From Lingula anatina (Eukaryota > Animalia > Brachiopoda): a stretch of DNA of 64,000 nt. Location of the stretch: assembly GCA_051362555.1 (NCBI GenBank), contig CM120641.1:3844001-3908000 (forward strand). The letters are read 5' to 3'. The first letter of the stretch is position 1; each line of letters starts with the position of its first letter. A program made the translations under genes and the position numbers. Shown here piece after piece: positions 24,473 through 64,000 of this stretch. The notes under the pieces are model-generated. The model made no database searches. It saw only the letters and a program-made list of their open reading frames with translations, and was not told the origin of the DNA.

Positions 24473-24589
24473 ATGGAGCAGGGACATCAAAGACTGAGAA
24501 TTACCCTCGCCAGGCCGGACAGTGGGGTGCCCTGGGGGTTCAGGCTTCAGGGTGGGGCCGATTTCACCACACCCCTCTCAATTCAGCTG
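24473..24589 (+). CDS. Gene 2 exon 1: MEQGHQRLRITLARPDSGVPWGFRLQGGADFTTPLSIQL
   Basis: aacATGg start, 117 nt, |gtaagt donor, phase 0, PWGFRL motif. Confidence 0.95.
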
Positions 24590-44200: not shown

Positions 44201-47200
44201 AGTATGTCAGATGTTAACTTGGCTTCCTTTGGGTTAGAAATAGTCGTCACACCATCTTCCCAGATAATGTGGCATTAAGTGAAGCAATCTTAACTTGACT
44301 GGAATCACAACTGTATATGGCTCTAAGTTAAACCATTTTAACTTGACCGGAACCACAACCACAGGTGTGCCTTCAGGAGAGACTCTGGAACTGATACACC
44401 TAAGATGGACTCCCAGAAGGGTACATCCTTAAGGAGGGATTAGACACTAACATTTCTGTGTCTGATTAAACTTAAGGGTACTTCAGAAGAGATATCTTCA
44501 GTTGATACACTCAAGGGTGACCTGATGCCTCTTTAAGTAAACTCATACAACTGATAAATGTATTTGGGGGGAGGGGATGATAAAATTGAAGCACCAGCCT
44601 AAGCACTAATTGATTAAACTTAAAGGTGCTTTAGAACTGATAGTGTCTTTAGAGGACACAGGGTTGCTTGATACCTCTTCATAGCTAGTAAAACCTAACA
44701 ACTGATAAACATATTTAGGGGAAGGTATCACTAGAATATAATACTAGGCCAAGCGTTCTTATGTTGACATTATTCTTTATGGATTACTTTATAGCATACT
44801 GAATTCACCATCTTTTTTTTCATAATTTTAATATGGCATCAAATTACCATCAGATCTGTATAAATGGTAGAAAAGTTTTCCAAAATGTGGTCACTGTGAC
44901 ATTTTAATTATTGTTTTTTTTATTTTTAGTTAATGTTTTATTTATAATCTCTCCACTAGGGTCCCAGCACTATTGGTGTTGCTCATAACCGTGCTGCCCG
45001 TCCGTTTGGTGCCTCCAACCTGAACCAGCCCCCCTCTGGGTACAAGCCAGGGGTGGTCCACTCCCAGTTCAACACCCCCATTGGTCTGTACTCTGCAGAC
45101 AACATTGCCGACACCTTTGTATCCCAGACTGCAGCCATGTCAGAGTAAGTCATCCAATTTCTATGAATATAATTGAAATGTTTTTGTAAATTTTCAATCA
45201 GATGTTTTGATTTTTTTTAACCATGTAGTGGGTATTAGTCATGTTGCGCCAGAGACCTCGGTCTTGCATTGAGATGTTTTTAAAGATTTATGACAAATGC
45301 AAATGTATGAAGCAAAGCTGGAAGTATAATTATTGTTAATGCCAAGCTTTCTGTATAAGTCCTATTTTTTCAATTTCCTTTGTTCCAGAATATGTTGTGA
45401 CTTGAATGCAGTTTCCTTTTCAATTGAAAAAAATTTAATTCATTTAAAAAAATCATTAAATGCCCAAAAGCTGTCATGTTTTTAATGAATCACTGGGTAA
45501 TCTCAGCCAAAGACTGCCGAAGAGTATAACTTCCCAACCAGGGCAAAATTATATTAACTGCTGGTATTAGGGGTTAGATCCAGTAATACAGTAAATCGAT
45601 CCTAGACCTTATATATTTTTTCGAAATTGATGTCCTGTTTTTTGTAGACTGCGAGGGCAGCCTTTGAATGTTGGGGTATCTGACTACCAAGGTAGGATTC
45701 CTGGAATTTTGAAACCCTGGAATGCCTTGTTGAAAAACTTGAAAAGTTCTTGAGATGTTTGTTATTTCTCCACACTATAGGGTTGACATACTAACACGCA
45801 TGGAGTACGTTTCAGTGCCTGCCTTCTCAGTTGTCAACAAAAGCATAAAGATGGATTTGGCAGTTGTCATTAATGTGGGATTTTCTTTCTACTCCCATTG
45901 GAAAGGTGACACTGGGTTTCATTAATTCTGCCCTGGTGCAGTGTTCTGTTGGCAAATGAATGGAAAGACATGCTGAATGCAATCATGCACACAGAAGATG
46001 TACTTTACAGTCTGAAGGGATGAGTTATGGAGGAGATTTGTTTTCATGTTTTATTGGCAGGGCTTAAAATTACAAGGGTTATGAAAATATTTCCCATGTT
46101 TTGAGAATAGATAATTCTTAAATGTCTCCCTCACAATAATATTGAATGCTAAAACATTTATAAGCATTCGGTCTGTTAAAGCTTTTACAGTACACCTTTT
46201 TCCTCAGTAGATTCCATGTTAATTAGCCAAAAGACTTGGTGGAATATCCTTATTGGGACATGACAATAAGAAAATAGGTTTATTAGCCAGTCCCTACACC
46301 ACCACTTCCTAACGCGTAGATAAGTATTTCATAATTGCTTAGGAAAAAAATGCACTCTAAAAATAGCTTCCCATCTGCTCTTGAGAACTAGCATGTTCAA
46401 AAGCAAAAAGAAAAAAAAGAAGATAGCGTCAACACAGCTGAGTGAGCAAAGAAATGGCGTAACTGAAATAAGAAATGTCTGCACTGCCATTTCTCAAAGC
46501 CGCAGGTGATGTAAACACCTGTTTTTGTGAATCATGCTGCTGACACCTGTTATGGTCAGTGTCACACACAGCAGATACTGGTCATTGTCTTGTATTGTCT
46601 CACATTGCTGCAGGTCTATGTGTTCTGTAGTTGGCATGGGAATAATGTAGAAACAGATTGATACTCCATACTTTATGACTAAAAGTCTACATCATATTTT
46701 AATGTTCCACATCCATGCAGAAAGATGTGCATAAGAACACTGTTGAGGAATTATAAGGGCACTTGACTAAACCTCATCACATTATTGATTAATGCTGGTA
46801 GTTTAGATACTTAGAATTAAGATGCTGTGGGAAAATGCATCAGGGCACCCTGACAGGCACACCTAAAAGCTACATGTACATGTTCTGCCACAATGTATGT
46901 TATATGCTTCAGGTGAATGTGTTGACTTTGTGGGAAAATGCATGAAAAATTCCAAAAGTCAGATATAGGTTTGATGCTATCATGGTAGCAATTTTGCAAA
47001 ATATAAATGAAATGAATAAATGAATGTTATGTAAAGACTTTAAAGAAATGATAATAGTTTCTGGGATTCATATCCATTCTACTTTAAATTTTACACCCCT
47101 TTCAAATTTTTGAAATAGATGAAATGGTATTTTGAAAGATGAAATATCTTATGAAAAAGAAAATATAGGATCTTCCCCATTATTTCAATTTATTTTGTGT

Positions 47201-50200
47201 CTATGAACTAATTAAACTTTAAAAGAGTTGTAATGGCCTTTAAAGAACTAAACAGTTCCTCTTGGTGGGTATCTACACTTTAATTGCTGGTCACCCAAGA
47301 AAATAACTAGTATTTTTTATTACAACTTCCTGTATCAGATTAAATTGTTGTTTCTTTTCTTTCGTCTCCTTTTGTGAGTGGACATAGTCCAATAGTGTTC
47401 ATGGTTTTTGCAGGCAGTGTATGCAGAAAACCTGTCCAACAGGATTGTGCATGTGATTTGAGATGTGTTTTGGCTTGTTGTGTAATTTTTTTCCTAACTG
47501 CATGTTTGTTTGATAATTTTTTGTAGCCTAGATATCAATGATCAGGCAGATGGCAATTTTCCACCTCCACCACCACCAATTGCAGCCCCAGCCCCAGCTC
47601 CAGCCCCATCCCAGCATTCATCAGCAACATGGCGGCCGCCTTCTCAGACTCCGCAGGCACCACCTGTGAAGATACAGCCAGCACAATATCCTCCTCCTCC
47701 TCCCTCTCAAAAACTTTACACAGGGGCACCACCCCCGGCACCACCAGCTCCTCCAGCACCACCAGCTCCAAGTGGTTCCAGAGCACATGTGGTCTCAAAA
47801 GTGGCGCCACCTTCAGCACAGCCTGTAAAAGTTGCTGGAATTGCACCAAAGGCGGCACCTGAACACGTAAATGGAAATCACAAAAAAGGCGAAGAAAATG
47901 GCAACCATAATTTGCCAGCAGATGCCCCCCCTGAGATCTCGCCCACTTTGTTAGCATTGCAGGAGGAGCTGAAGGCCCAGCAGAGAGGAGAACAGGAGGT
48001 GTTTAAAGGTTTGGGGATGTCCAATACAGAGAATCACCAATCACGATCATTCCGCTTGTTGAAGGAGGATTTAGACAGTGGTGGAACAGGTAGTTTAAAA
48101 TTGTTGTCCTCTGTCCTGTAAAATAATCAACTGCCAGTGATATAAAAGGGAGAAATGCATAAATAATTGTAATTGTGTGTTGTTGTGTTATGTTATGTGT
48201 AGTTATTTTTTTTTAGTTTGTGCTTGTTGTACTGTTTTGCGCTCCCAAATTATGTTACTGGTATATTTTTTTCTTTTTTTTTTTCTGCAGTATTACAAGT
48301 TTTCCTAACACTTGCCTCATGTTGGCATGTGCAATGTTTGTTGTTTGAATTACTCATTATTTTTATTTACAAATTCTCAATTACCCATATTTTGCACCAC
48401 AGCGTGTATGAGACTTCTGGTGATATATTTTATGTGTTGATTAACTAAATTACAGCTGTTGTTCAAAGAGTTCATTATGTGCCTGCACATCATGAACATG
48501 AACATGAAGAAGAGGGTGAGTTGAAGCATGGTTTTATGTTTGACTGCTGCAGGATTCCTGTCTTTATTTTCTGATAATATAAATCAGATTTCTCTATTTT
48601 TTTTAGTCCTTCCTATTTTTTTCCTTCTTTCTTTTCATATATATTCATGCATTAAATTATTTATGTATGATGTATATTTAACCACAAAATAGATATGTAG
48701 ATTTTAGAATCTTTTATTGTAAGTATCATTTAGTATTTTGTGAACAATTTACTAAAAGTTTGTCAGTATACAGGAATTGAAAGTTAAATGGTATTGCTAC
48801 TAATTAAAAAAAATACAAGGAATTAAAACCCTGCAGCAGTCAGAAAGATAATTATGGTTACAGCATGCTTTGCTTCAGTTAAAACAAAAATGGGAAGGAT
48901 GTTATTTATTTATTTGGTAAAGGTGGACAGAAACACCACCATGCATGAATAACAAATGAAGGGGCTTGCGGATATATTAAAACATTTGAAGAAATATAAT
49001 AAATTTTATTATACCAAAGGATCAAAATAAAAAAAAGTTTCTGTTTTTGATAACAAAAAATGGTTTTTGATTTGTGAAATTATTATCAGATTTTGATCCT
49101 TTGGACATTTAAAACAAGATATACTCTATCCATATGTACAACACACACACACACACATACACACACACACACACACACACCGTTGTATTGAACATGTCAG
49201 TGTACGTCAGTCAGGTGGAGGTCAGAGGTCAGGGGTCACATTGCTACCAACATCATGTGACAGTGGGTTACTGGGAAGGGTACTGTAGCAGAGAACAATG
49301 ACTGATAGGAGTGAGAGGAGAGTAGCTTTTACTTGCAAATGGGTGGGATTAACCTTTGTCATAGCTTCTTTAACCTTATGGAGATGGTTTATCATGGTAT
49401 AAATTTGATTCTTTGAAAGATTCGGGTGAATCTTTGGTCTTTTTAATGAAAAAATAAAATGACTTTTGTGTCTAAGGCTTCGTTCACATGCAATGTCTAT
49501 TTTCTAAATTCTATTTTCTATTCGCGCTATCTTATGATCACGGTCTGTGCACTGAACATCCCGCCGCGTAATTACTGGCAGCGCGAGCCAGTTACTTATA
49601 GTAACTTATAGTAACTGGCTCGCGCTGCCAGTAATTACGCGGCGGGATATTCAGTGCACAGACCGTGATCATAAGACATGCCGCAAATAGAAAATAGAAT
49701 TTAGAAAATAGACATTGCATGTGAACGAAGCCTAAGATAAATTTCCCTTCACAGAATCCTACCACTGAAGATTTTGGTGTAAATTTTGGCATCTGTGCAT
49801 CAGGTTTGACATAAACAAACAAACAGATCACAGAGGGACTCCTATTGTGTTCAATTAATTTTTTTTAATTTATCATTTTATGAGTTGGTATCATTCAAAT
49901 GTCACACTGGAAAATATAGTATTTATTGCTAAAATTTCTATTTTCTGTCTATCTCAGGTCAGTCAGTCCCGGGTATGCGCTCTGTGAAAGCCCCCCAGAC
50001 CAGAGCCCCTGGTGCGCCGACTCAGCAATCTGGCGAAGCTTGCGCCATTTGTGGCATGCTGGTCACGTAAGTTGTCGTCTTGAAAGAATTTCTTTTTTTA
50101 TTGGCTCGATCTTTCTGAGTGGTCTTGCCTAAATAAAGTGTTCTTTAAAATTTTTTGAGGTGTGGCTATCACTAATCTCAAGTCCTATATCTTGATAACT

Positions 50201-51530
50201 CAAATTTAATTGACTAGATATCCAGGTGAAAAGATTTGTAATTTTTTAATGTATATTTAATTCAACTGTCACTTTGACAATAATGAGATGTTACAAAGTA
50301 TTAGTAAATATTAGCTATTTCCTCTTTGGAGAAGAAATACAGAATTAAAACGTCCTAAATGAGTGCATGATGCACATTGTTGATATTAGCTCTTTGAATT
50401 TTTTTTATATTTTTAGCTTTTTAAATTAAATTATGTTATTGGACTTTTGCAGAGGAGTGTTTGTTAAAGTGAGAGGCAAGCCCCTCCATGCTGACTGCTT
50501 TAGGTGTGACGAATGCAGGAAGAGTTTAAAAAATCAAGGTATTTCCTCAATTTAGGAACTGAACTAATGTTTTAAATGAATAGCATTTGCTAATTTACCA
50601 GATGTCGTGGACTGTGGAGTCTTATACTTGAAGACTAAATGCAGGTAAATGGAGTGGTATTTGCAGATAGGTTGAGTCCTATATGTGCAGATGAAGTGAA
50701 ATGTCACAATTTGTGTATGGTTTATAACATGTAAATTCAACAGTTCATACCAAGAATTCTGAAGATGTTAGGAAAACAAAATATGAAATAAATGTGCTTG
50801 TTAGTTAAGACCATACTTAAGTCCAACATATTTGTTCATTAAGGATTGAGAGAATGACATTTAGATTACATAAATGATATTTAAAAAAAGATGAATATTT
50901 GTAGCCAACAGCAGCTATTTACCACAGTGATTTGTTTACTTTGAAATCAGGTTATTTCTGGATTAATGACCGTATGTATTGTGAGGAACATGCCAAGAAG
51001 TTGACCCAGCCCCCTGACCCTGACCTGGTAGCAGTCCCCATCTACAGGTGAGAATAAACAGCAGATAGCGCCATCTAGTGTTTAAAATGTTTGCATACAT
51101 ATATTTTATCTGTTTACAAAAAGAAAAAATGTCACCAAAATCTGTAGTTGAAAATGTTATTAGATTTTATGTTACAGTTTTTCAAGTTCAAAAGTACTTC
51201 TTGTTTTTTCCCCTTTTGTCACATATATTCAGTCAACTTTGGCTGATTCCTATGCAGATTTTGATGAATTTGTTTCAAAATGTTACCTAGGAATCATTTA
51301 AATTACATGCTTTCTTGCTTGAACAAGAAAACAATAAATTTGTGGCATATTTCATTCTAGTATTGAGAACAGGAATGGCATTTAACTCATACTAGTAAAG
51401 ATTTAAAAATGTCTAAACCAGCTTTATTTTCGTACAAAAATTACTCAGTACATGTATGTATTTAATGTGTGTGTGTGTTTTTTTTTTTGATGGTTTCAAA
51501 TTTTGATGCATATCTTTTATTTTCAGATAA
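24473..51530 (+). CDS. Gene 2 (complete, 481 aa): ALP-subfamily PDZ and LIM protein (PDLIM1/2/3/4-like). Exons 24473-24589, 35851-36002, 37465-37597, 44960-45144, 47527-48089, 49958-50066, 50453-50538, 50951-51047, 51527-51530
   Basis: All junctions GT-AG and in phase (1446 nt). PDZ; IGVAHNRAARPF; ZM VVHSQFNTPIGLYSADNI; AM QSRSFRLL; GMRSVKAP; single LIM CAIC-HADC-CDEC-CEEH. These motifs are characteristic of ALP proteins. Confidence 0.93.
26236..28922 (+). mobile_element. Helentron/DINE-1-like element of the same family, three head-to-tail units
   Basis: Same termini as 11502-14607 in opposite orientation; the head sequence agatgtgtctgtacatattgccatcacctgcg recurs near 26249, 27144 and 28316. 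Confidence 0.78.
35851..36002 (+). CDS. Gene 2 exon 2: VNPGSVAERCGLHPGDAVLQINGQNADYMEHEQAKKEIVRAGNQVEFIVER
   Basis: ttacttgcag| acceptor, AG|gtaagt donor, 152 nt, PDZ C-terminal part. Confidence 0.95.
36911..37076. mobile_element. Small MITE with CAGGCCCGTAGCCAG terminal inverted repeats
   Basis: 15-bp perfect TIR; TATGT flanks both sides. Confidence 0.75.
37465..37597 (+). CDS. Gene 2 exon 3: GGVRIWKPKVTPMSELRPGELQTHGVPNEPAPIQRTSLAHHEIQ
   Basis: gttttacag| acceptor, CAG|gtagat donor, 133 nt, phase 2 to 0. Confidence 0.9.
43921..44079. mobile_element. MITE-like inverted-repeat element
   Basis: gtttcacaaaaaaa..gtcag.ttccctggct is mirrored at the right end. Confidence 0.55.
44146..44198. repeat. 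(TTA)n microsatellite
   Basis: Directly visible. Confidence 0.95.
44960..45144 (+). CDS. Gene 2 exon 4: HNRAARPF and ZM motif (VVHSQFNTPIGLYSADNI)
   Basis: ctctccactag| acceptor, |gtaagt donor, 185 nt, phase 0 to 2. Confidence 0.95.
47527..48089 (+). CDS. Gene 2 exon 5: Pro-rich linker plus AM motif (SPTLLALQEE...QSRSFRLL)
   Basis: tttttgtag| acceptor, CAG|gtagtt donor, 563 nt, phase 2 to 1; ORF 47510-48121. Confidence 0.92.
49141..49180. repeat. (CA)n microsatellite
   Basis: Directly visible. Confidence 0.9.
49476..49732. mobile_element. PIF/Harbinger (Tourist-like) MITE, almost fully palindromic
   Basis: GGCTTCGTTCACATGCAATGTCTATTT... long inverted arms; TAA target-site duplication on both sides. 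Confidence 0.88.
49958..50066 (+). CDS. Gene 2 exon 6: GQSVPGMRSVKAPQTRAPGAPTQQSGEACAICGMLVT
   Basis: tatctcag| acceptor, |gtaagt donor, 109 nt, phase 1 to 2. Confidence 0.92.
50453..50538 (+). CDS. Gene 2 exon 7: GVFVKVRGKPLHADCFRCDECRKSLKNQ (LIM)
   Basis: cttttgcag| acceptor, AAG|gtattt donor, 86 nt, phase 2 to 1. Confidence 0.93.
50951..51047 (+). CDS. Gene 2 exon 8: GYFWINDRMYCEEHAKKLTQPPDPDLVAVPIYR (end of LIM)
   Basis: aaatcag| acceptor, AG|gtgaga donor, 97 nt. Confidence 0.93.
51527..51530 (+). CDS. Gene 2 terminal exon coding part (A + TAA stop), followed by 3' UTR
   Basis: atcttttattttcag|ATAA completes the AGA Arg codon and the stop. Confidence 0.7.
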
Positions 51531-53713
51531 ACACTTATTCGGAACATAAAAATGTTTCTTGTGTCAAGATGGAAGCTGTGTGAACTTTGACGTGTGAAGC
51601 CATAATATATTAAGATGACAGGGTACAGGCCCAGAGGACAATTGGGGGGGGGGTAATTTTGTGTGGGGAAATCATATGGTGTCTATGAGTAAAAACACCA
51701 CTTATAAAACTACACAATGTTACATTATTTATTTTCCCAAACCACTTGCTGCATTTTCACGGAGTGCATGGAGCATTGTGTGAATTAATCAGCTATGAAT
51801 ACAGTGAGTTGAAGCAATAAATGAAATATAAGCACCTATTGCCACATTATAAGGTTGAAATATAAAAAAAAACTTTTTATACATAATATCTAATAATTGT
51901 TATCCTCTCTTCCAATTGTCTATTATATAATTTGCTTCTTCCAATCAATGTAAACATATTTTATTTGAAAGACATTGAATTAGTAAAAGGGGTTTTACTT
52001 CAAACAATACTATTTTGAATTTTTTTATTGTTATGCAGCCCCATTAGTGAATGCCAGGTTGGTCCCAATGTATAAGCCATGTTATACAAGAATTAAGTTT
52101 ATCATTCACTGTTTACATGCAGTTAAGAGAAAGATTCATTCTACACATTTGTTAGAAGTATTTTTTTTTCTTTTTCATGAAATTCTTCAATTGTTTACTG
52201 TTTTCTTTGTTTATGTTGAAATTTTACACCAGTTGGTGAAAAATGTTGCAACTGCAGATGATAAGATGGAAAAACAAAAGGGCACACAAACCAAAAAAGT
52301 GGGTGGTCCCAGGTGTCAGCTGTCACCAAAGACTGGGAAACATTTATAAAAATTCTTCTACACAAAGATTTTTGTGAATGTTATGTTATTTAGCAAGTAG
52401 ACTTTATTATTAGGGTAGCAACCTGTAAAAGATCTAGTACGAGAATATTTCTTACAGAAAAGTAAATTTTGGTACAACTATTTTAAATGTAAAGCCAGTG
52501 TATTTTATAACACTAGAAATCATTGTTTAGTATTTACAAAGCATGAAGGCATTATACTTACACCCTTGTAACCTTTATATTATGTTATTTATTTATTTCA
52601 AAACCTACAGTGTCATTGTTTAGCTTGGCTAGAAAAATTATTTAACCCACATGCCAAAGTATTATCATTTCTCTTCATATTTATATACATTTTATTCTAA
52701 TATAAGTCCTTGATATCATTCACTATTTAGTTTTTTCACACCATCTAGTCGAAATCCTTCATTTGATTTTTTAGTGACTTATATGAAAAGCAATTCTGTT
52801 GTGCTGCATACCAATTTGAATTATACAGTTTAAAATGCTTGAGGAGATGTAGATGTATTATGTTTTTGCTAAGGAATCCACTATTTTCAGTCATACTTTA
52901 GTGGCAATATTTGATTTTTTTCATATTACATTGTAACTCTTTGCCCTCTGAATTAAGTTTGCTGGAAAGAAAGAACTCTTATTTGTTTACCTTATTTTGA
53001 TGAAGATATTTATACTACGGGATTTGAATCAGTGGTTAAACTCATATTTTTCAGCATTTTTATTATTCTTGAAAAACTATTTGAAAATGCCAAATTATAA
53101 AAGTTCAAAAAAAAATTAATACTTATATTTAGTTACGTGACATGTTTTTTTTTTTTTTTTTTTTTTTTCATAATGTTCTTGCTGTTTTCCTGCCTATCTT
53201 TTTGTTTTTCTTCAATATTGGATATATGTTAACAGTTTCTGGGGGTATTTAATTTTCACTGCAAATTAGATGATATCTACATATATAGTATGACCTGAAA
53301 ACATTTTGTGTACATAAAGAATCGAGGTTTTATCTGGAGAGTGAAGTGCAAATTCTGCTGTCCAAGTTACATAGGCACAGATTTTCAAATGTTAACAAGG
53401 CAAATTAGGGAGCAGGTACTTCAAGAAGAATAAAATGGAGAATGCTTCCTCAATGGTGTATCAACAATGAAACCTTTGGCCCTAAGGTGCTTACTACAAG
53501 CACGGGGCGTGAAAAGTAAGCAAGTGAGAAATAGCATTACAAACTGTCATTCATTATTTTCCTTTATTTTTTTCATGTAGTCTTCCCAAATATCTATACC
53601 CCATGTATTTTCCATAAAGAAGAGGAATGTTTAACCTTCCAAACAACCACTGTACTTGCAGATGTATTGCAACTTTATATTGTAAATATTAATTTCCTAT
53701 CTTATTAAAGTCA

Positions 53714-53719
53714 AATAAA
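53714..53719 (+). terminator. Candidate polyadenylation signal of gene 2
   Basis: AATAAA followed by T/GT-rich sequence, coinciding with the end of the CpG-depleted domain. Confidence 0.4.
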
Positions 53720-55100
53720 CTGCTTTTGCTACTCTTTATTTATTAAAGCTATTTTGTTTTGTCTTTTTGAAAGATTATTTTTAAAGAAGACAACGATATT
53801 TATTAGAAAAGTTTATTCCAGGAAGAATAAATGAACAAATGCGTATAAATTGCGGTAGAGGAGTCTGTAAAATGCGCTGCATTGTGTTTTCATTGACGTG
53901 TGTACCGCTGAAGAATACTACACCAAGAATCGATTTCTTGAAATGGTGACGATGAAAAATTATAAGTAATCGACTTATTTTGTTTTCTCACATTCGGTTT
54001 TAACGCTAACAATGACCCAGAATAGACTATTATGCAATAAGTGTCACAATCAATGATTAATGGTCTTTCGTTCTGAAAATTATGCAGCAAAATGTGTCTC
54101 GTCCAAATGTTGCGTACTACTATGAACTTTCCCATCACCTGGAAATCTTTACTTTAAAACTGTCAAGCCAGCTTACGTGAGATTTCAGCACACCTACATA
54201 TGTTGCATTTCATTATTAGTACGTACCGGTATGGAGATTTCCAAAAAATAATAATTATAATAATAATAATAAAAATAAATAACAAAATAAAATAAACAAA
54301 AATAGAACTAAAGTAGCTTACACAGTACCACCATTTCTATTATTTTTAATTTCTATTTGATTAGTTTTCGCGGGCATTGTCTGTACTTTCGAAGGGTCCA
54401 CTTATAATTGTACTTCGAAGGGTCCATCTTGTTGAACGTGGTCTTGATTAGAAAGTATAAACAGACTGCAACTGTCGCTCTTTTCACCCTTCGATTTAAT
54501 CACAGTTAATCTGAAAATAAAGGGAAAAAACATCAAATAAGGACATCACCACTAAATATTTTACGGCATCCAAAAAAGTTCGTAAATTTACTGCAATCGA
54601 CCGCTATTGCTGAGCCTGCTTATCTGAGCATCTTCAGGTAAAACGTGAATGAGGATCGGTACCTCCATCCCCGACTGCCAAATGTCACCGCATAGCCCGC
54701 GAAATATTGAAATATCGGATTGCAAAAATTTTAATGAATTTGGTCGTGGAGGGGGGTACACAAACTACACCTTAGTGAATCGCACAACTGATAGAATTAT
54801 TATGAATCAATTTAGCGTTGGTGACACTGTTGAAATAGGCTACGTGTTTTGCGTGAATACAATTTTCTCTGGCATTTTTATTGTGAAATGAAATATGGCA
54901 AGACATCTATCTTGCTGTATATGGGCATATATATATATATTGCTGCATATATGCTTACCCTCTTCCAGGACCAGAGATTGTTTTTTCACTACATATTCAC
55001 AGATATTGGTCGTCAATTCATGACATTTTTCTACTGTACTGTCCAGAGAGAATGTGTTAATTTCATCCCTCTGGCCTCTAGTATAGAGAAAGATATATAC

Positions 55101-55323
55101 CTATTTCGCCGGCTGTTGTGCCTGCGCGGCATGTTCCTCCTCTGAAAGTTGCATTTGTAGAATCCTGAAGGACCGGGACTGGACATTGGACGCGGCGTGT
55201 CCTGGGTGGCCTGACACGGGGCCCTCGGTGTGGCGTAACGTGCCCTCAAATTGCGCGCCAGAGTCGTCCACCGTGTCTCCGGCACCACACTGGTAAGCTG
55301 GGTTAGTCAAGTCTATAGCGCCC
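55101..55323 (-). CDS. Gene 3 constant exon 3: GAIDLTNPAYQCGAG...SNVQSRSFRILQMQLSEEEHAAQAQQPAK*
   Basis: gtacttttag| acceptor, phase 2, AM-motif core QSRSFRIL, TAG at 55103-55101. Confidence 0.88.
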
Positions 55324-57154
55324 CTAAAAGTACACCCTTGTGTCAGTACTGAACAGAAATTGTTATATTTCTAAAAAGTGTAGATGCATTCACCTGTTTT
55401 AATTGTTTTAGGCTTCTGCGATAAAAGTTTACTGTGCACATTTCCCTAACAACCACCGTTGTATCATGCTTAATTATCTATTATCTTGACCATGTAATGC
55501 CAAAAGAAAATGTAAATGTTAATGAATATTATGCAATGTTAAAAGTATTCTTTTAACATGTATCCGGGTCTGCAGTAGTTTACCACCAATTTTCGAACTA
55601 TTTATGTTCATTAGATATTTTTTAATGGTGGTAACCGAGGCAAAATATGACAATAGTTTTTATTTTATTAAGAATATATCTTACTTCTGCAGAATAAAGT
55701 CGAGCTCGTTGCCCGCCCTGATCACTTCCATCTTAGCTTGGTTGTGTGAAAGACCGTTGGCTATTGTATTTCCTATACGGAGGACGGCATCGCCGGCAGC
55801 CATGCCATGCTTGGCCGCTATGCTGTTAGGAGTGACCTAAAACACAAAAGAAAGAAAGAAAAATCAGCACCAATGCCAAGTATTAATTATTTCAAAACGA
55901 ACCTATACAAAGGATAATAAAAACTCACATTTAAATACCGAGTGTGCGCGCTCGTGCGGGGTGGGGGGTAGGAGGGGAAGTATAGGTAATTGGATCCTTT
56001 TTTGAAACCTCGTTAACAGTGTTTCCTCATGTAGAGTGCACAGACTGGTCAGGCCTATCCTGGTTTTTCAATAATGTACTTGGGTTATCTGTGTAGAATT
56101 CAAGCAGTGGGCGATTCTGAAGTAATGGTAAATACTAAAGTAAAATTATCTTCAAAATGTAAGGGAGAGTAATGGTTGATTGCTATCCAGTTAGGTGCAC
56201 TCTGAATTTAATCTTGGTCGCTATCTATTTTTATAAATTAATGTAAATATACAATCGGATTGGTTAATTCACCTTTCATTCAAAGAAAATAAAGTCAAAT
56301 ACACAAAAAATCAGGGAAGTTAGGGGTTACTTAGAAAATCAAACAGACCATGAATGTGTGCCTGGTAAAATATCATTTGGGGTTATCTTGTAATGAGTTG
56401 GGCGTTATGTTGGCCGATGTGATTCTATACCTGAGGCACCACTAAAATTTAGGATCCAAAATAGTGTTGGATCCTAGCTAACATCTGATCCTTATACATC
56501 TTGATCAAATGTCTCCTGTAAGTCAATTCACAAATATAGATCCCATTTTAAAATATGGGACCTACATGTACATGTACCAGTAAAATTGGTTTCAAGGGAA
56601 CTATAGCCGTCTTTAGGAGAATCAGCAACACTGTTCAAATCCATCAAAGCACAGAGCAAACAATATGCAGGGAATACAGATTCATTCATTCTGCAACTTT
56701 TAATCAGGTATTTCAGTAAAACTAGTTGCTAGCACAGATCTAATAAGGAAATTAACAGCAGGTCCAGATGCGCAGCAGATGGGAGTACGCTATCTTCTGG
56801 TGTGGCAGTTTAATAACAAAAAAATCTTTTCTCCTCCATGAACAGTGGTCCTAGGCGAGCTATGATTATTTATAACAATTTAAAGAAACGATCTGTTTTA
56901 TTTGAGCAATCGGCCATGTTTTCTTATTATTTTTACTACGATTTTCTTGTCAGAAAAAATACAAGATTTCTTCACATTAAAAAACATTGGATATTCCATA
57001 CAGATGGTATGAAATTTAAACCTGTCTGATTCATAAAATGATAGTTGCATCCAAGTGTTTCACCTTACGGCGAGTATTAAAGACCTGTTACCCTCTGATC
57101 TGAAACCTACACAGAACCTCTGTACTATAACAAGGTACAGAACCCACGCACTGT

Positions 57155-57222
<68 letters not shown>

Positions 57223-60200
57223 ACGATGTTGTCAAACTTCGCAACTTGGGCACAGCAGATAAATAAGTTGATCCTGTTAACGACTTGGGTAGTATAATAA
57301 GTGTGATGTTACCTGCACTAGTGCCATACTATCATCTTCGTTAATTAGTATTGAATACACATGCAAACACGGGGGAGTGGGCCAAATTAATACAAAACCT
57401 GCCTTACACATCGCTTATTCAGTAAAGCAATATACACAAAACCATCTCTGTCTTCCACTAGCAGCTGACAGACCGGCATTAACACATCATTCACTTGGCC
57501 TAGATATTTACGTGGTGAATTCCGGGAAATTCAATTAACGAAGCGACTTCAGCATACCAAGGTGCTATGGATTTCCTTAGACCCCTTGGAGGGGGGAAGT
57601 AAACATTGGGTAATATGTGCACACACCACGTGGATTTAACAACTCAAACATCTGGCAATTAAGATTTCTGCGGGTTACGCATCCTTGTTTTAACAAATAA
57701 ATCCCAAGGCTAACTGCAAAAAAAGATAATAAAAATTTCGGCCACAAATTTCTAGATCTATTTTGCAATTTTTGCGAAAATGTGAAAAAAAAAACACCGG
57801 GATAAATATTCGCCATTCTACAGTGCCATCGGTTTGTTTGTGTACGCGATCCTTTGGTTAATGATGATGCAGTACTCCATCCTTTTAAGGCAACCGGACC
57901 AGGTAGACAGCTACCTGTGGTGTTTCAGATCATCTGGAGGCCAATACCGCGAGCGTAATACTAATAAAACAAGTGCAAATGCCGTTAATCTCTACTCTGG
58001 TATATGGAATATACCCCCGCTTGACTGTCTGAGTGATTGTGAGCGCGTGTGCTTTCCAAACAAAATTACCCTGCCGTAAAACTATTACCATTATAAAAAA
58101 AAACGTAAGGAAGAAATTGAGGGTTGCAGGCCTACTATGAACGCCGTGATTAATTTAATATAATTTGATTACGTGACCAATGATAAACAGATTACGGTTA
58201 ATATAATAGCGTCTTAAAGTTTCCCCGCACATACTCCTAGCTGTGCAAGACAGCTCCCTTCATCACCTTACTTAAGTGGAGCATGGTGCCAGAGCATGTA
58301 CTCCGAAGTGGTAGTTTTTTGTACGTAATAGGAACCGATGTTTACATCACTAATTCACTTAAGCTTCAGTTGTTCACGCTAACTCTCACAGACCACATAT
58401 CACTAGCACTGCGAGTAGCTTCGAATCTAGTTATAATCCACATGATAAAAGGAATTACACATTAAAATGGATTAAACTGTAGGTATATCGGCACATTTGC
58501 TACAGTCAGATTAATAAGTGCATTTCGTTTAGAATAATTGTTTAGAATATCATTCAGGCTCTTTTGCTGTACCGGCATTCGGGCATAGACTTGAGGCACG
58601 TATACAATCCTCGGCCGCATAGCATCCCCTATACACGTTACCTTGGCTAAATAAAGTGGTAATCCAAAGTCTGCACCCCCTTGCAGCGTGAAGCCCCAGG
58701 ACGTACTGGTCTGTTTTCTCCTTAGCCGCACAATATACTGGCCCTCGGCCATTGTTTCTGAGAAATATTACGGGAAACGCACAGACGTTTCCTTGAATCC
58801 CCTGTCCTGGTTGAAACGCGCACAACAGCAGTCGGATGGGCTTAAGCAGTATATTCCTAAGCAGAATCAAATTTCATTCTCCACTGAAATTAGCGATTTG
58901 GGGGGATTCCTTGTATGTCCAGCAGATGGCGATAGTGTGCAGTCACCGAAGAATTATCTACAACAGATGGGATTCACTCAGAGAGATAATAAAGGATGTA
59001 AAAGCGGGATAAAATTGCAATGAAAACTCCATTAGAAAATTTTCTGAGATGTAAATCTCTAATGAAGGTTTGACAAAGGCCATGAATGGATCAAGGATGA
59101 ATGACGTAAGAGAACAGAGAGAATAGTGGCGGGGGATAAAATTAGGAAAATATACCATGAAGGCAAAAAGTAGGTCGATTTATTGAGGGTCAAAAATAAA
59201 TTTGAGAGAAAAGCAAAAAGAGAACGACATCAATATCCATTCAAATAAAGAAAGTTCAGGAAAGCTCAAAAACCTGAATTCCAATATGACTTTTTCCTGC
59301 TATCGATAGAGAGAGACCACTCAAGAAACGGATGAACTTTATGGTTACAGGGACAAATGGCGCTAAGGAAAAATTTGGATTTTCAAAATATTCACTTAAG
59401 TAGTGTTAGCGTTACACGTATTAGAGTAATAATAATGTGGGAATGTTTTATCATTTGTTATTCCCATCTTGTCCATCATTCCATTATCCATTTCTGCGCA
59501 CATCACATTCCGCAGTCAAAGAGTGTATTAGATGCGGCCGTCGATTGGTGTGGTAGTTGGGCGTCGACACAGTCGCAATAATGGCGGATCTAGGATTTTG
59601 CCTGCTAAGGGGGAGGGGTTTAAAACATTCGTCCGAGCTTTTCTCGGCAGATATAATTTAAAGGGGTGATGTGGCACATGTGTTAGTCCCAGCGTGCCTC
59701 TTGGACCCGCCATTGCTATAATTCACTGAAAACTCGTTTTGTAAAAACAAGGTACAATTAGTATATAAAACAAGTATCTTTTAAGTACGTGTACATGTAC
59801 ATTTGTAGGTTGCATAAACTAAACGTGAGATAATTTATGGAAAATGCACAGCAGAATTACCGATCAAAATCACCTGACCACAATAAACGAATGCAAGCTG
59901 CCATCGACCATCTGCTAAAAAAAGAAAATAAAGAAATTATCTGTAGACGTGGCATCTGCCGGTCTAATCAGCAGATCTACATCTTTCATAGCGTGGAAAA
60001 GCGATTACATGGGAAAATATGACAAGGATGAATAATATTAGCCAATGTCTGCTAAGGTGAAAAAAAAATATTTTTTTCATCATTTTGGAGAAAATAAAGA
60101 GACCAATGCATTCTGCTGTTATTAACAGCGATAAGCTAAAGAAAGGAATGAAAGAAAAACGGCATTTTCTTCAACAAAAGCCTAATGATTACAGAAAAGG

Positions 60201-62219
60201 CGGGGGGGGGATAATTAAAATAACGGCTTTCTGGAATGTAGCGCCTGATTGCAATTACCTGGCTCAATAGATCAAACAGTTTGGCATCTGAATTCAACTG
60301 CTTTGTAGGAGAAATATTCAAAACAAATCAAAAACAGAGGACTTAATGAGAAAAAAGAAAGAAAGCATTTACCTGCTTCAAACAGTGCTAACAGAAAGGA
60401 CTGACAGAAGTATGAACTTTGAAGATGGAAGTGTTTGAAGAGAGTTAGGAAAGAAATGTCAGGAAAGATCTGCAGCAGGTTGGGAATGCTATACATAAGC
60501 AAAATATGAAAACTTCATGCAATTAATGAGTCCAAACAAGTAATTACACCATTAAGCAGTACCAATTACATTCTTCGTTGTTAGAACTTATAATAGGTCT
60601 TATTAGCTGAAAGTTAAGGTGCAAATGAGGAGGATAAGTCGTGGGCAAATTATTATCCTTACGTATGGTTTCAAACATCGATCGGACCGTTCAATAAGTC
60701 TCACCTTTTTAATGAAAAACGGCATATTATAGTTTGCCCCTCCCGCCAACTGAAACCCCCACTGCGTCTGATTTAGGTGCCTCCGAAGCTGTACCTTGTA
60801 TACGTCTCCCTGAGTCATGGTTAGTCTCCTGTTTGAAGTTTCTTCATCAACTCCCTGGTGCAAGGAGGCATACGAATATTGCCAACTGGTTCGTTTTTCT
60901 CTTGGCACACACACTGATATCCCAAGATAATAATCCTTGCAGGGGATATAACTATCTCAATATCTATCAAGATATATAACGTTGTTACTGATATTCCGTG
61001 TGCCCGGAAATCGGCCAAGGTTTGCTTATTATGATGAAGCCCAGCTCAGAGCGAAAAGCGATCATGCAATAAGACAGACCTACGCTGAGATGAGCATCTC
61101 TGTTTTCTAGATTTACATGTACAAGTCAGACAAGATCTACAAGCTATTGGTATGCGAAAGATTCAGAAGAAACTTGTGCAAGAATAGTGTACTTTGATAC
61201 GGTAAATCACTTAAAGGTTTTTCAAATATGTCATCGAGTTACAATTGGTTGAATATTTTGGCACGCCCAGTAGCTTGTTAGCGAATACAAGCCCGCTACG
61301 AGGGAACGTGCTGCTCGTGATTACTACATTAACTTTAACTATAACCCCATTCGCATGAACGCAGGGCTCTTGAGTAAAGGTTAAGCAGACGACCTCTCCT
61401 CGAAATGCCGCTGATTCCGAGGAACGTGGGCGAATAAACACAACTTGAAGTTGACATTGCCATAGATCAAACCAAGCTTCAGCGAAGGTGTATTTTTAGA
61501 TACACTTTGAGGTGTTTACACCTGGATTGCAAATAACCAGGGCAGTGGAAATATAGGGACATATAAAATATATTATGGAAGAGAGGCAATCTGGGGAATG
61601 AATGATGAAAAGGTTAGAAAAAAACAAGATAGATGAATCGAAATGTTATGAAGCAAAGGTTATATATATAGTGATGCATACGTGTGGATTGCTGTTATGT
61701 AATTAAATGAATAAACAAGAGTTGCGAGACTCTCTCTCTTCCAAAGAGAGAAAGAGAGAGAGAAAAAGAGGGAAATCTCGACATCCAACTGACACTAACG
61801 TTTTCGATTAGAGTACAAGTTTACAGTTCTGACGAAGCTACTCGTCTTCCAAAAATTAACAAGCACACTGTATTGCTTCTCAGTTACTCAATACAACATT
61901 GATAACTACCCGTTAACCGTCTTCGCTCAGGTAGATACGCACTTTAAAATCGTTAATGTGAATCATCTTCTCATTTTCGAGAAATATCCACCTACAGAAA
62001 TGTACAGACTATTCTAATTAACTCCCGTAAATCTAAACTGTCTGTATCTTTTTCTGAGATATTTTCGGCCCAGCCCTTTTAGTATGGGCAATATGTCTAG
62101 AATAACGCGTACGGAAAGTATGTTGAGTATGAATATATAGGATAAGTCACATTGTATTATTACAGGTAGAATGACATTATCAATTCTTTTTGATCCAGGC
62201 CTCCGTTGTGGTTTGCTCC

Positions 62220-62277
<58 letters not shown>

Positions 62278-62955
62278 CGTTACTTGGATCGCCTTATACA
62301 ACACTCAATCCACCTTGTTTCGAATTAATCGCTGATTCCTTCACTTCCAAAAATGACATGAAAGGGTGGTCGTATAGTGTAAAGATTGGGTATTCGAAAA
62401 CTTACAAGTTTTATACATATTTTACTTCTTTTACATACACCCAGAGAACATCCAAGAGGGGTCCTCAATAATTTATTTCATCACTCTGGATAATGAACTG
62501 GGCCTTACTCCGCCCAACTGAAGGTAGTTAACTGGCGAGGATGAACTTGTTTTCGCACAAATATTTCCGGCGCACAAGAGTTTGAGCCAACGTAAACACG
62601 CCACACCCTTGATATATGTGTCTTCTCAGAGGAACGGAGGATTATATACAGAACAAGTTAAGAACCATTTCCTAACACATGAAATCAACCTGTATATTCC
62701 TGTAAAATCATTCACAGTTTGCAAATGTTTCAAATCCTTTAACAAAAGTAAAATGTTCGTTTGCTGGATAAATGTAGAAAGAGAATATCACGCAAAACGT
62801 AACAGACATACAATAAATTTTTTGCTTACCTTTTGGATGTAAAGTGGTAACCCAAACTCCACTCCCCCTTGCATCCGGAATCCCCAGGGGTGGTGGGTCT
62901 GTTTGCGGCGGAGACGGACCTCTGAAACTCCCGGTGGGTACTGTACATGTGACAT
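55101..62955 (-). CDS. Gene 3: short LIM-less PDZ + AM-motif protein (161-166 aa) with three alternative first coding exons (62830-62955, 60705-60818, 58642-58752) and constant exons 55685-55836, 55101-55323
   Basis: Three PDZ N-terminal exons, each with ATG and phase-0 GT donor; only one PDZ C-terminal exon found downstream; the last exon carries VQSRSFRILQ then TAG. Confidence 0.82.
55685..55836 (-). CDS. Gene 3 constant exon 2: VTPNSIAAKHGMAAGDAVLRIGNTIANGLSHNQAKMEVIRAGNELDFILQK
   Basis: Strong polypyrimidine tract ...ttttgtgttttag|, donor |gtaaga, 152 nt. Confidence 0.95.
57158..57218. repeat. (TA)n microsatellite
   Basis: Directly visible. Confidence 0.95.
58642..58752 (-). CDS. Gene 3 variable exon 1c: MAEGQYIVRLRRKQTSTSWGFTLQGGADFGLPLYLAK
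   Basis: acaATGg at 58752, 111 nt, AAG|gtaacg donor, phase 0. Confidence 0.93.
59580..59714. mobile_element. Small MITE-like element with imperfect AATGGCGGATC TIRs
   Basis: aatggcggatctagga ... tcttggacccgccatt. Confidence 0.5.
60705..60818 (-). CDS. Gene 3 variable exon 1b: MTQGDVYKVQLRRHLNQTQWGFQLAGGANYNMPFFIKK
   Basis: accATG at 60818, 114 nt, AAG|gtgaga donor, phase 0. Confidence 0.9.
62222..62275. repeat. (TA)n microsatellite
   Basis: Directly visible. Confidence 0.95.
62830..62955 (-). CDS. Gene 3 variable exon 1a: MSHVQYPPGVSEVRLRRKQTHHPWGFRMQGGVEFGLPLYIQK
   Basis: gccATG at 62955, 126 nt, AAG|gtaagc donor, phase 0. This frame is absent from the ORF track. Confidence 0.92.
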
Positions 62956-64000
62956 GGCGACTAAAAAACCACTTTCTTCTGGTTACGAATACCAAATTGA
63001 AAATACTTTGTTCCTAGATGTTCAGTAGAGTTATTTGAATCCTCCTAGCTTGAAGAGCCGGAGACGGAGAGGAATTTAACAATCTTCTCAAAGTTGATGC
63101 CCTCTGAAATGTAGGCTATGCACCTCTTGGTTCTCAGCACAAAGACGAAGACTCCGTATTAAATGCCGGGAGAGATCAGGCACCTTTACCTGGATTAAAG
63201 ATAATTTAAAAGCTGCGATCACCCGTCTTTTCCTATTTCAGCTCAGGTCAGCTAAAGTAACATTTAACAGCGGAGTGAAACAAAAATTTACGAAAGTGAC
63301 GAAGGTACTTGGAGCAGAAAGAACATGTGTTGGTCGAAACTTAAATGCCAACTTTTGTAAATGTTTACTATATGTGATTAAAAGCAGCAATGACATATAA
63401 TTGAGTTGGAGGCCGCAAAATGCACCAACCACAGTAAACCAGTAAGTAACGCTTCATATCCGACCTGAATAAAACGGCTATACTTCAAATATCACAAGTA
63501 AACAACCGAAATCAGTTTTGCCAATTATTTTCATTTACGTCTTGTGTATTATTTTATGTATTTCGTTTGTTATCAGGTATTTTTCCATTAATTGTTAGAA
63601 ACAAGATAAATTGAGTAAGTCAGAAGGTGATAGAAAACAGAATATGGCTCTACCTGTACAAGTCCGCTTCTATCCACAGCTTCTCTCCGAAGACTTCTTA
63701 TTAGTTTCCGAAAATTAAATCAGATCGGCGCATGGGTGGAAAGTCTTTTGGCAAAGAGTTTGAAAATGTTAGCTATCGCAAGCAGGTGAACGGAGAAGAG
63801 GAACTGTTATTAGTCACTTGGAATGAGTTAGACCTCGTTATCCCGCTGATGAATGTTCGGGAAAAATAAATTAACCACCGGGAAGGATTCAGGAGAATTT
63901 TCTAGTGATTTTCTAGCTTGTTTTTTGTGACTAGTATGGTCAAGGAACTTTGCAAAACAGATTCTAAAGAGCCCCATTCGGTAAACTTAGATTTTGTTTA

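What the first reader, a model, noticed from the sequence alone, without database searches (positions are those of the whole stretch)
55101..62955. Variable-exon PDZ gene: three tandem first exons swap the ligand-binding half of one PDZ domain
Seen: three intact paralogous exons (1a 62830-62955, 1b 60705-60818, 1c 58642-58752; donors about 2.1 kb apart). Each has its own ATG, encodes betaA, the WGF carboxylate loop, betaB and betaC, and ends AAG|gt in phase 0. I found no 152-nt PDZ exon 2 between them; the only one is 55685-55836. The variable residues are the peptide-contacting ones: PWGFRMQGG/PLYIQK, QWGFQLAGG/PFFIKK and SWGFTLQGG/PLYLAK. Established: betaB/betaC side chains help set PDZ ligand specificity, the PWGFRL-type motif of Zasp/ALP PDZs is needed for alpha-actinin binding, and variable-first-exon/constant-exon layouts occur in clustered protocadherins and UGT1A. 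Inference: promoter or exon choice yields three PDZ specificities on a shared alphaB-His/AM body, a split-domain diversification I do not know from this family. The array may continue beyond the right edge of the window.
Basis: partly seen in the sequence, partly recalled or inferred. Interest (0 to 1): 0.92.

Follow-up and report, generated by a model that had tools for sequence, protein, structure and literature searches.

The report
Swappable exons rebuild one PDZ groove
A small Zasp-family scaffold gene of the brachiopod Lingula splices one of three duplicated 5' exons onto a shared second exon, so one PDZ binding groove is built in three versions in sample-dependent ratios, and the version that dominates some samples carries the same Arg-to-Thr change that abolishes alpha-actinin binding in fly Zasp52, which likely retargets it to other partners.

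Summary
Confirmed. The window is Lingula anatina. Exons 1a, 1b and 1c are intact, and only one exon 2 lies downstream. RNA reads join each to exon 2 and none to each other. RefSeq already lists the three proteins (XP_013392472-474), so the transcripts are annotated, though I found no paper on them. Use varies: 1c is 65-69% of 1a+1c junction reads in two runs, 8% in a third run of that study (p=4e-5), and 0% in three runs of a divergent population. Corrections: 1a follows a non-coding leader exon, and only half the groove is swapped; the class-setting alphaB His/Lys and the WGF loop are constant. New: the Zasp52 R22 site, where R22T abolishes alpha-actinin binding (PMC5081203), is R in 1a, Q in 1b and T in 1c. 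Inferred: promoter choice switches a LIM-less mini-Zasp between an actinin-binding form and retargeted forms. Binding is untested. The mechanism class (N-terminal tandem-exon substitution) is known; its use inside a PDZ groove was not found in print. The scan noted a similar spare PDZ exon in a probable annelid (unchecked). Interest 0.55.

The parts
63654..63800 (-). Non-coding leader exon spliced only to 1a in the listed joints; its 5' end is not defined (63800 is approximate; low depth runs on toward 64000)
   Evidence: Joint skipping 63190-63653 in X4, X5, X6, X7, X8, X9; donor CAG|GTAGAG
62830..63189 (-). Exon 1a: 234-nt UTR plus 42 codons (betaA, carboxylate loop, betaB, most of betaC); canonical motif PWGFRMQGG, R at the Zasp52 R22 site
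   Evidence: RefSeq X1; strands E10-16, E26-31, E36-43 in the model
60705..60900 (-). Exon 1b: own 5' end likely near 60900, 38 codons; most divergent copy, QWGFQLAGG; rare
   Evidence: 7 (X4) and 3 (X7) junction reads; read-end pile at 60900 in X5; RefSeq X2
58642..58895 (-). Exon 1c: own 5' end likely near 58895, 37 codons; SWGFTLQGG, T at the R22 site; dominant in X4 and X5
   Evidence: 104 and 164 junction reads, read-end piles at 58895 in X4 (12 molecules) and X5 (10), no upstream joint listed; RefSeq X3
55685..55836 (-). Shared exon 2: C-half of the PDZ domain (alphaA, betaD/E, alphaB with His73 and Lys77 in X1 numbering, betaF)
   Evidence: Only C-half copy downstream of the array; Pfam PDZ positions 32-77, E 0.0014, below cut-off alone; helix H73-83 in the model
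55101..55323 (-). Shared exon 3: low-confidence linker plus the SRSFRILQ helix (AM-type motif; that label is recalled), stop TAG at its last codon; no ZM, no LIM
   Evidence: Joint 55322/55684; DUF4749 positions 69-90 only, E 0.034; pLDDT <50 at 107-141, helix 143-161
53735..54510 (-). 3'UTR exon 4 (3' end approximate; AATAAA at 53817, 53804, 53744)
   Evidence: Joint 54510/55101 and depth to about 53734

Best explanation
This is one LIM-less ALP/Enigma (Zasp-type) gene of Lingula anatina whose first coding exon was duplicated twice in tandem and is spliced in three mutually exclusive forms onto one shared exon 2, likely through three separate promoters, and the swap likely retunes which partners the PDZ groove binds. 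Shown: the family's conserved intron splits the PDZ domain inside betaC, so each copy supplies a complete betaA-loop-betaB-betaC half. All three are spliced in frame, and 1a/1c ratios differ strongly between samples. Inferred: 1a (own leader exon; PWGFRMQGG; closest to mollusc and other orthologues) is the ancestral, broadly used form that would bind alpha-actinin. 1c (T at the R22 site) and 1b (Q there, plus A at beta2-4 and K at beta3-4) would keep class-I C-terminal peptide binding through the shared alphaB His and the invariant WGF loop, but would lose or weaken alpha-actinin binding and prefer other -1/-3 residues. In the samples where the gene is most highly expressed (tissue unknown, plausibly muscle), the 1c form supplies about two thirds of junction reads, so the majority product there would be a retargeted PDZ.
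For: Junction reads and absence of inter-exon joints. Models equal RefSeq X1-X3. 1c:1a is 164:75 in X5 versus 1:11 in X6 of the same study, Fisher p=4.2e-5 (by distinct starts 69:41 vs 1:9, p=1.6e-3); X4 and X5 agree (p=0.51). Read ends pile at 58895 and 60900 with no upstream joint, whereas 1a has its own leader. 1a vs 1c over the last 30 codons: dN 0.28, dS 1.13 (ratio 0.25); 1b has saturated dS (pS 0.75-0.78) yet an intact frame, WGF, GG and donor. Model of X1: pLDDT >90 over the PDZ, rmsd 1.0-1.3 A to PDLIM7, ZASP and PDLIM4 PDZ structures. R22T alone abolishes Zasp52 binding to alpha-actinin without affecting stability (PMC5081203, passages and section 14). R at that site in 11 of 11 non-Lingula homologues, in 39 of 51 unique homologous N-halves and in both paralogous genes of the window. 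beta2-2 and beta3-4 contact ligand position -3 (PMC2553845 passages).
Against: No binding data for any Lingula isoform; the R22T result is from Drosophila and needs a C-terminal PDZ extension that may differ here. 12 of 51 homologous N-halves lack R at that site (4 K; 8 A/N/V/S/T, including T in Owenia fusiformis P0112), so the change is tolerated elsewhere in the family. Read-end piles are not cap mapping, and the 1b pile at 60900 sits right behind an AG, so it could be an acceptor. 1b is rare (10 junction reads in 2 runs) and has an upstream ORF ending just before its ATG (UTR ATGs; frame read). Tissues of the runs are unknown; absence of 1c in X7-X9 is confounded with a divergent population (90-99% alike). 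No CArG or MEF2 site within 600 bp of the three candidate starts. No protein-level evidence.
Confidence: 0.6

Rival explanations
1. Regulatory subfunctionalisation only: promoter plus first exon were duplicated to give tissue-specific expression; the three PDZ versions are biochemically near-equivalent and the residue differences are tolerated drift under purifying selection.
For: Sample-specific use is the best-shown feature. W, G, F, GG, beta3-5 and the whole alphaB side are constant. dN/dS of 0.25-0.36 shows constraint, not positive selection. Non-R residues occur in 12 of 51 homologues.
Against: Both derived copies changed the one groove residue whose single change abolishes actinin binding in Zasp52 and that is R or K in 43 of 51 homologues; Q there was seen in 0 of 51.
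Confidence: 0.27
2. 1a and 1c are functional but 1b is a leaky or decaying copy that yields little or no protein, so the system is two-way.
For: 7 of 166 and 3 of 28 upstream junction reads in X4 and X7; longest end branch but one in the tree (0.93); upstream ATGs in its leader.
Against: Synonymous sites saturated while frame, ATG, WGF/GG and donor are intact; spliced in two divergent populations. A rare cell type would give the same low counts.
Confidence: 0.1
3. Separate genes or an assembly artefact (each exon 1 has its own missing exon 2, or the copies are haplotigs).
For: The window has repeats and duplicated segments at 12-29 kb.
Against: Direct spliced reads from all three exons to the single exon 2; copies are only 52-73% alike in DNA with unrelated flanks.
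Confidence: 0.02

Closest known systems
N-terminal tandem exon duplication-derived substitutions (human catalogue, PMC8373072; triples in GCNT2 and KCNAB1; protocadherin and UGT1A clusters)
   Same: Homologous duplicated 5' coding exons, one per transcript, joined to constant exons; attributed there to alternative promoters (passages).
   Different: Here the variable exon is about 40 codons and supplies only half of one small globular domain. None of the 39 human N-terminal events listed is an ALP/Enigma gene; that none touches a PDZ domain is my recall of those genes, not a tested result.
Drosophila Zasp66/Zasp67 (LIM-less ALP/Enigma proteins)
   Same: N-terminal Zasp-type PDZ, no LIM domain.
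   Different: Zasp66/67 keep a ZM domain; this protein matches only the C-terminal part of DUF4749. No alternative PDZ halves appeared in the passages read. Orthology not tested.
Human PDLIM3 and LDB3 homologous exons
   Same: Same family, duplicated mutually exclusive exons, in a region tied to alpha-actinin binding (PMC4494069 passages).
   Different: Internal exons at the ZM region chosen by splicing; the PDZ domain is invariant.
PTP-BL PDZ2 / PDZ2as (PMC4365404, search listing only)
   Same: Two transcript forms of one PDZ domain.
   Different: A 5-residue insertion, not an exchange of homologous half-domains.
Spiralian small PDZ + SRSF-motif proteins (Ostrea, Saccostrea, Dreissena, Tubulanus; mostly auto-named 'PDZ and LIM domain protein 7-like')
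   Same: 132-188 aa, 41-50% identical over most of the length, same PDZ signature and C-terminal motif, no LIM.
   Different: All 9 annotated oyster isoforms share one N-terminus within a species and vary at the C-terminus instead.

Membership tests
ALP/Enigma (Zasp PDZ) family | N-terminal PDZ closest to PDLIM/ZASP PDZ domains | tested here: met
   Best PDB sequence hits PDLIM7 and ZASP, E 4e-13 to 4e-12; best Foldseek hits 2q3g, 4ydp, 2v1w
ALP/Enigma (Zasp PDZ) family | PWGFRL-type motif | tested here: met
   Full in 1a (PWGFRMQGG); altered at the P18 and R22 sites in 1b and 1c
ALP/Enigma (Zasp PDZ) family | AM motif (shared in part by all members per PMC9751615) | tested here: inconclusive
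   SNVQSRSFRILQ closely matches the LDB3 stretch shown and DUF4749 positions 69-90 at E 0.034, below cut-off; that this stretch is the AM motif is recalled
ALP or Enigma subclass proper (RefSeq name PDLIM7) | One or three C-terminal LIM domains | tested here: not met
   Stop at 55103-55101 in spliced reads, 161-166 aa, no LIM
Zasp66/67-type LIM-less proteins | ZM domain | tested here: not met
   DUF4749 positions 2-29 match paralogous gene B (E 4.9e-9) but not exon 3
ALP/Enigma (Zasp PDZ) family | alpha-actinin binding, Z-disc or stress-fibre location | not testable with these tools
   No binding or localisation data; no Lingula alpha-actinin among session sequences
N-terminal tandem-exon substitution | Homologous tandem 5' coding exons | tested here: met
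   8-13 of 20 motif residues identical; 1a/1c blastn 79% over 66 nt, E 2e-8
N-terminal tandem-exon substitution | One copy per transcript joined to constant exons | tested here: met
   Three joints to exon 2, none listed between copies (listing needs 3 reads and 2% share)
N-terminal tandem-exon substitution | Separate promoters | tested here: inconclusive
   Read-end piles at 58895 and 60900 and a leader joined only to 1a; no cap mapping; AG next to 60900
Clustered protocadherin-type system | Large array, whole ectodomain per exon, stochastic single-cell promoter choice (recalled) | tested here: not met
   Three 111-126-nt coding exons for half a domain; single-cell choice not testable

The most novel reading that the evidence does not exclude
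Spiralian animals repeatedly, or once anciently, exploit the conserved intron in the middle of the Zasp PDZ domain as a hinge: promoter choice snaps different betaB/betaC halves onto one alphaB half and switches a mini-Zasp between an alpha-actinin anchor and actinin-blind forms with new ligands, the actinin-blind 1c form being the main product in the tissues that express the gene most. This would be a combinatorial half-domain code for PDZ specificity, and a natural R22T experiment that exposes the non-actinin partners of Zasp PDZ domains.
Probability: 0.25. Interest if true: 0.75.

Novelty: new variant of a known kind. Interest (0 to 1): 0.55.

Why it matters
PDZ specificity is usually varied by gene duplication or by splicing of the ligand's tail; here one gene exchanges half of the groove itself. 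The three isoforms differ only in about 40 N-terminal residues on an identical body, which makes them a ready-made controlled experiment on how beta2-2, beta2-4 and beta3-4 set ligand choice and on whether the PWGFRL arginine is the alpha-actinin switch outside flies. If 1c is actinin-blind yet dominant in some tissues, Zasp-type PDZs have a main job other than actinin anchoring, and its ligand can be found directly. It is a modest, lineage-level finding unless the arrangement proves shared with annelids.

Tried and rejected
No whole genome is held, so sequence beyond 64000 and synteny could not be checked; a fourth copy further upstream is not excluded, but none is suggested by the loose ends shown (7 and 42 rows hidden) or by the three RefSeq isoforms found. 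Word-based search with exon 1a alone found nothing. Pfam did not recognise any N-half exon alone. No RNA holder was listed by the run index; the RNA runs came by species label. X1 and X2 gave only repeat-derived reads. Single-sequence fold of the 1b isoform failed (pLDDT 34.7): uninformative, no evidence on 1b folding. The 31-column tree of 56 N-halves could not resolve whether 1a/1b/1c form one clade (3 changes, few supported forks; 1b beside Owenia P0112 at 93/79 on a long branch). Search for the same arrangement elsewhere: among 68 of 161 proteins with the N-motif in register, only the Lingula trio had identical C-halves with N-halves 40-65% alike; five pairs around P0010 (C 0.86-0.96, N 0.70-0.80) look like between-species variation. 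That test is weak because the library collapses isoforms at 50% identity. Motif scan for CArG/MEF2 was blank. ESM Atlas gave only PDZ/DUF4749 clusters. No complex was predicted: no partner sequence was available. Literature searches with no hit; listings with nothing on this case by title or abstract start. Subscription journals are largely outside the library.
Full report
Observation. On the minus strand, 1a (62955-62830), 1b (60818-60705) and 1c (58752-58642) are open frames from ATG to AAG|GT in phase 0, and exon 2 (55836-55685) continues the PDZ domain. Profiles of the PDZ N-half and C-half, built from alignment A1 and run over all six frames, find five N-halves and three C-halves in the 64 kb, with a wide gap to the next score. 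Two N/C pairs belong to two other ALP/Enigma genes (A and B); the remaining three N-halves share one C-half. The profiles include the Lingula sequences themselves, so the gene's own scores are inflated, but they detect the paralogues at E 1e-11 or better, so a further intact copy inside the window would have been seen.

Organism and annotation. Exon 3 matches two Lingula anatina RefSeq proteins at 100%, and their clusters hold a third: XP_013392472.1 (166 aa), XP_013392473.1 (162 aa) and XP_013392474.1 (161 aa), auto-named 'PDZ and LIM domain protein 7' isoforms X1-X3. The spliced models 1a, 1b and 1c + exon 2 + exon 3 equal them letter for letter. There is no LIM domain. So the isoforms exist in a database, without any description that I could find: searches gave no papers, and the listings showed none on this case.

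Transcripts. Eight of nine listed RNA runs were laid, about 6-30% of each. Six express the gene. Junction reads into exon 2 were, for 1a/1b/1c: X4 55/7/104, X5 75/not listed/164, X6 11/not listed/1, X7 25/3/0, X8 27/not listed/0, X9 31/not listed/0. No joint links the copies with each other. 1a has an acceptor at 63189 and a non-coding leader exon from 63654; no leader joint is listed for 1b or 1c, whose reads end in piles at 60900 (7 molecules, X5) and 58895 (12 in X4, 10 in X5). That fits three promoters, but it is not cap mapping, and an AG lies next to 60900. Within one study, X4 and X5 agree (p=0.51) while X6 differs (p=4.2e-5 against X5; p=1.6e-3 on distinct starts). X7-X9 lack 1c altogether (0 of 83 1a+1c reads) but come from a divergent population, so tissue and genotype are confounded. 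Tissues are unknown.

Age and selection. The copies are old: 52-73% DNA identity over the last 20 codons, with unrelated flanks. 1a against 1c gives dN/dS 0.25 (30 codons) or 0.36 (20 codons); synonymous sites of 1b are saturated while its frame, WGF, GG and donor are intact. These are very short alignments. In the divergent population the 7 shown differences in 1a and exon 2 are all synonymous; no rows were shown for the coding parts of 1b or 1c.

Structure. The X1 model has pLDDT above 90 over the PDZ and superposes on PDLIM7, ZASP and PDLIM4 PDZ-peptide complexes at 1.0-1.3 A (sequence hits). The exon boundary falls at the end of strand betaC. In Tonikian et al. 2008 (three passages), beta2-2, beta3-4 and beta3-5 contact ligand position -3, beta3:alpha1-1 contacts -1, and alpha2-1/alpha2-5 set -2. 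Mapping by position is mine (F after G = beta2-1): the variable exon gives R/Q/T at beta2-2, Q/A/Q at beta2-4 and Q/K/A at beta3-4, while W-G-F, GG and beta3-5 K are identical and beta3:alpha1-1, alpha2-1 His and alpha2-5 Lys are in the shared exon. So the class of ligand is predicted constant and the fine preference variable. The single-sequence fold of the 1b isoform failed and says nothing.

The actinin switch. Liao et al. 2016 (passages and section 14) number the motif from P18; R22T alone abolished alpha-actinin binding without destabilising the protein. 1c has T at this site, 1b has Q, 1a has R. R is present in 11 of 11 closest homologues, in both paralogues of the window and in 39 of 51 unique homologous N-halves, K in 4 more (these 51 come from 68 of 161 session proteins with the motif in register, the rest being fragments or distant PDZs). 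Against this, 8 of 51 carry A, N, V, S or T, so the family tolerates the change, and the fly result need not transfer.

Distribution. The gene belongs to a spiralian group of small PDZ + SRSF-motif proteins (oysters, Dreissena, Tubulanus and unnamed assemblies). Nine annotated oyster isoforms share one N-terminus per species, and no other same-body/different-head set stood out, a weak test. It is a lead for recurrence, not support.

Comparison with known systems. Martinez Gomez et al. 2021 (passages; supplement rows) define the class: duplicated 5' coding exons used through alternative promoters, 39 human N-terminal events, triples in GCNT2 and KCNAB1, plus the protocadherin and UGT1A clusters. 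In this family the catalogued human events are internal ZM-region exons of PDLIM3 and LDB3 (PMC4494069 passages). PTP-BL PDZ2as is an insertion (listing only). Family definitions come from PMC9751615 (passages, Introduction); PMC6910826 passages showed no alternative PDZ halves for Zasp66. te Velthuis 2007 and Koch 2012 were not seen. The finding works like a small variable-first-exon system and passes that class's tests except direct proof of promoters; it fails the LIM test for PDLIM7 and the ZM test for Zasp66/67.

Verdict. Real, expressed and sample-dependent; mechanism class known; transcripts already auto-annotated; the half-domain exchange inside a PDZ groove and the natural R22T form were not found in print. 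Shown: exon structure, splicing, differential use, constraint, fold of X1. Inferred: separate promoters, tissue identity, altered ligand preference, loss of actinin binding. New variant of a known kind; interest 0.55.

Noticed in passing
window 22946-22836, 11342-11196, about 735 and 371 (- strand): Paralogous gene A: Zasp52/Enigma-like, PWGFRMQGG PDZ split by the same intron (about 11.5 kb), LIM exons near the left edge; single first exon by profile scan.
   Followed up: partly
window 24473-24589, 35851-36003, 44996-45145, about 48040, about 50450-51050 (+ strand): Paralogous gene B: PDZ-ZM-LIM, head to head with gene A (ATGs about 1.5 kb apart) and tail to tail with the studied gene, 3'UTRs meeting near 53730. 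The window thus holds a three-gene ALP/Enigma cluster.
   Followed up: partly
window 55100-54511: Intron directly after the stop codon (0 nt), spliced in all expressing runs; it carries a short repeat at 54955-55006 that attracts unrelated reads. Oyster orthologues vary their C-terminus at about this point.
   Followed up: partly
runs X7-X9 on window 53000-64000: Reads carry many fixed differences from the assembly (90-99% alike), as from a divergent population or cryptic species. Of 16 coding differences among the 40 rows shown for (41 hidden), all 7 in the PDZ exons are synonymous and 4 of 9 in exon 3 are not.
   Followed up: partly
window 12300-14600 and 26200-28900; 15661-16135 vs 18016-18490; 49471-49737: Repeat family copied in inverted orientation into the first introns of genes A and B; a 475-nt exact duplicate (possible assembly feature); a 267-nt palindromic MITE-like element.
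   Followed up: no
P0112 (Owenia fusiformis), P0122 (Rodentolepis nana) and relatives: Other spiralian homologues also lack the PWGFR arginine (T, A, V, S), so actinin-motif loss may recur in this subfamily.
   Followed up: partly
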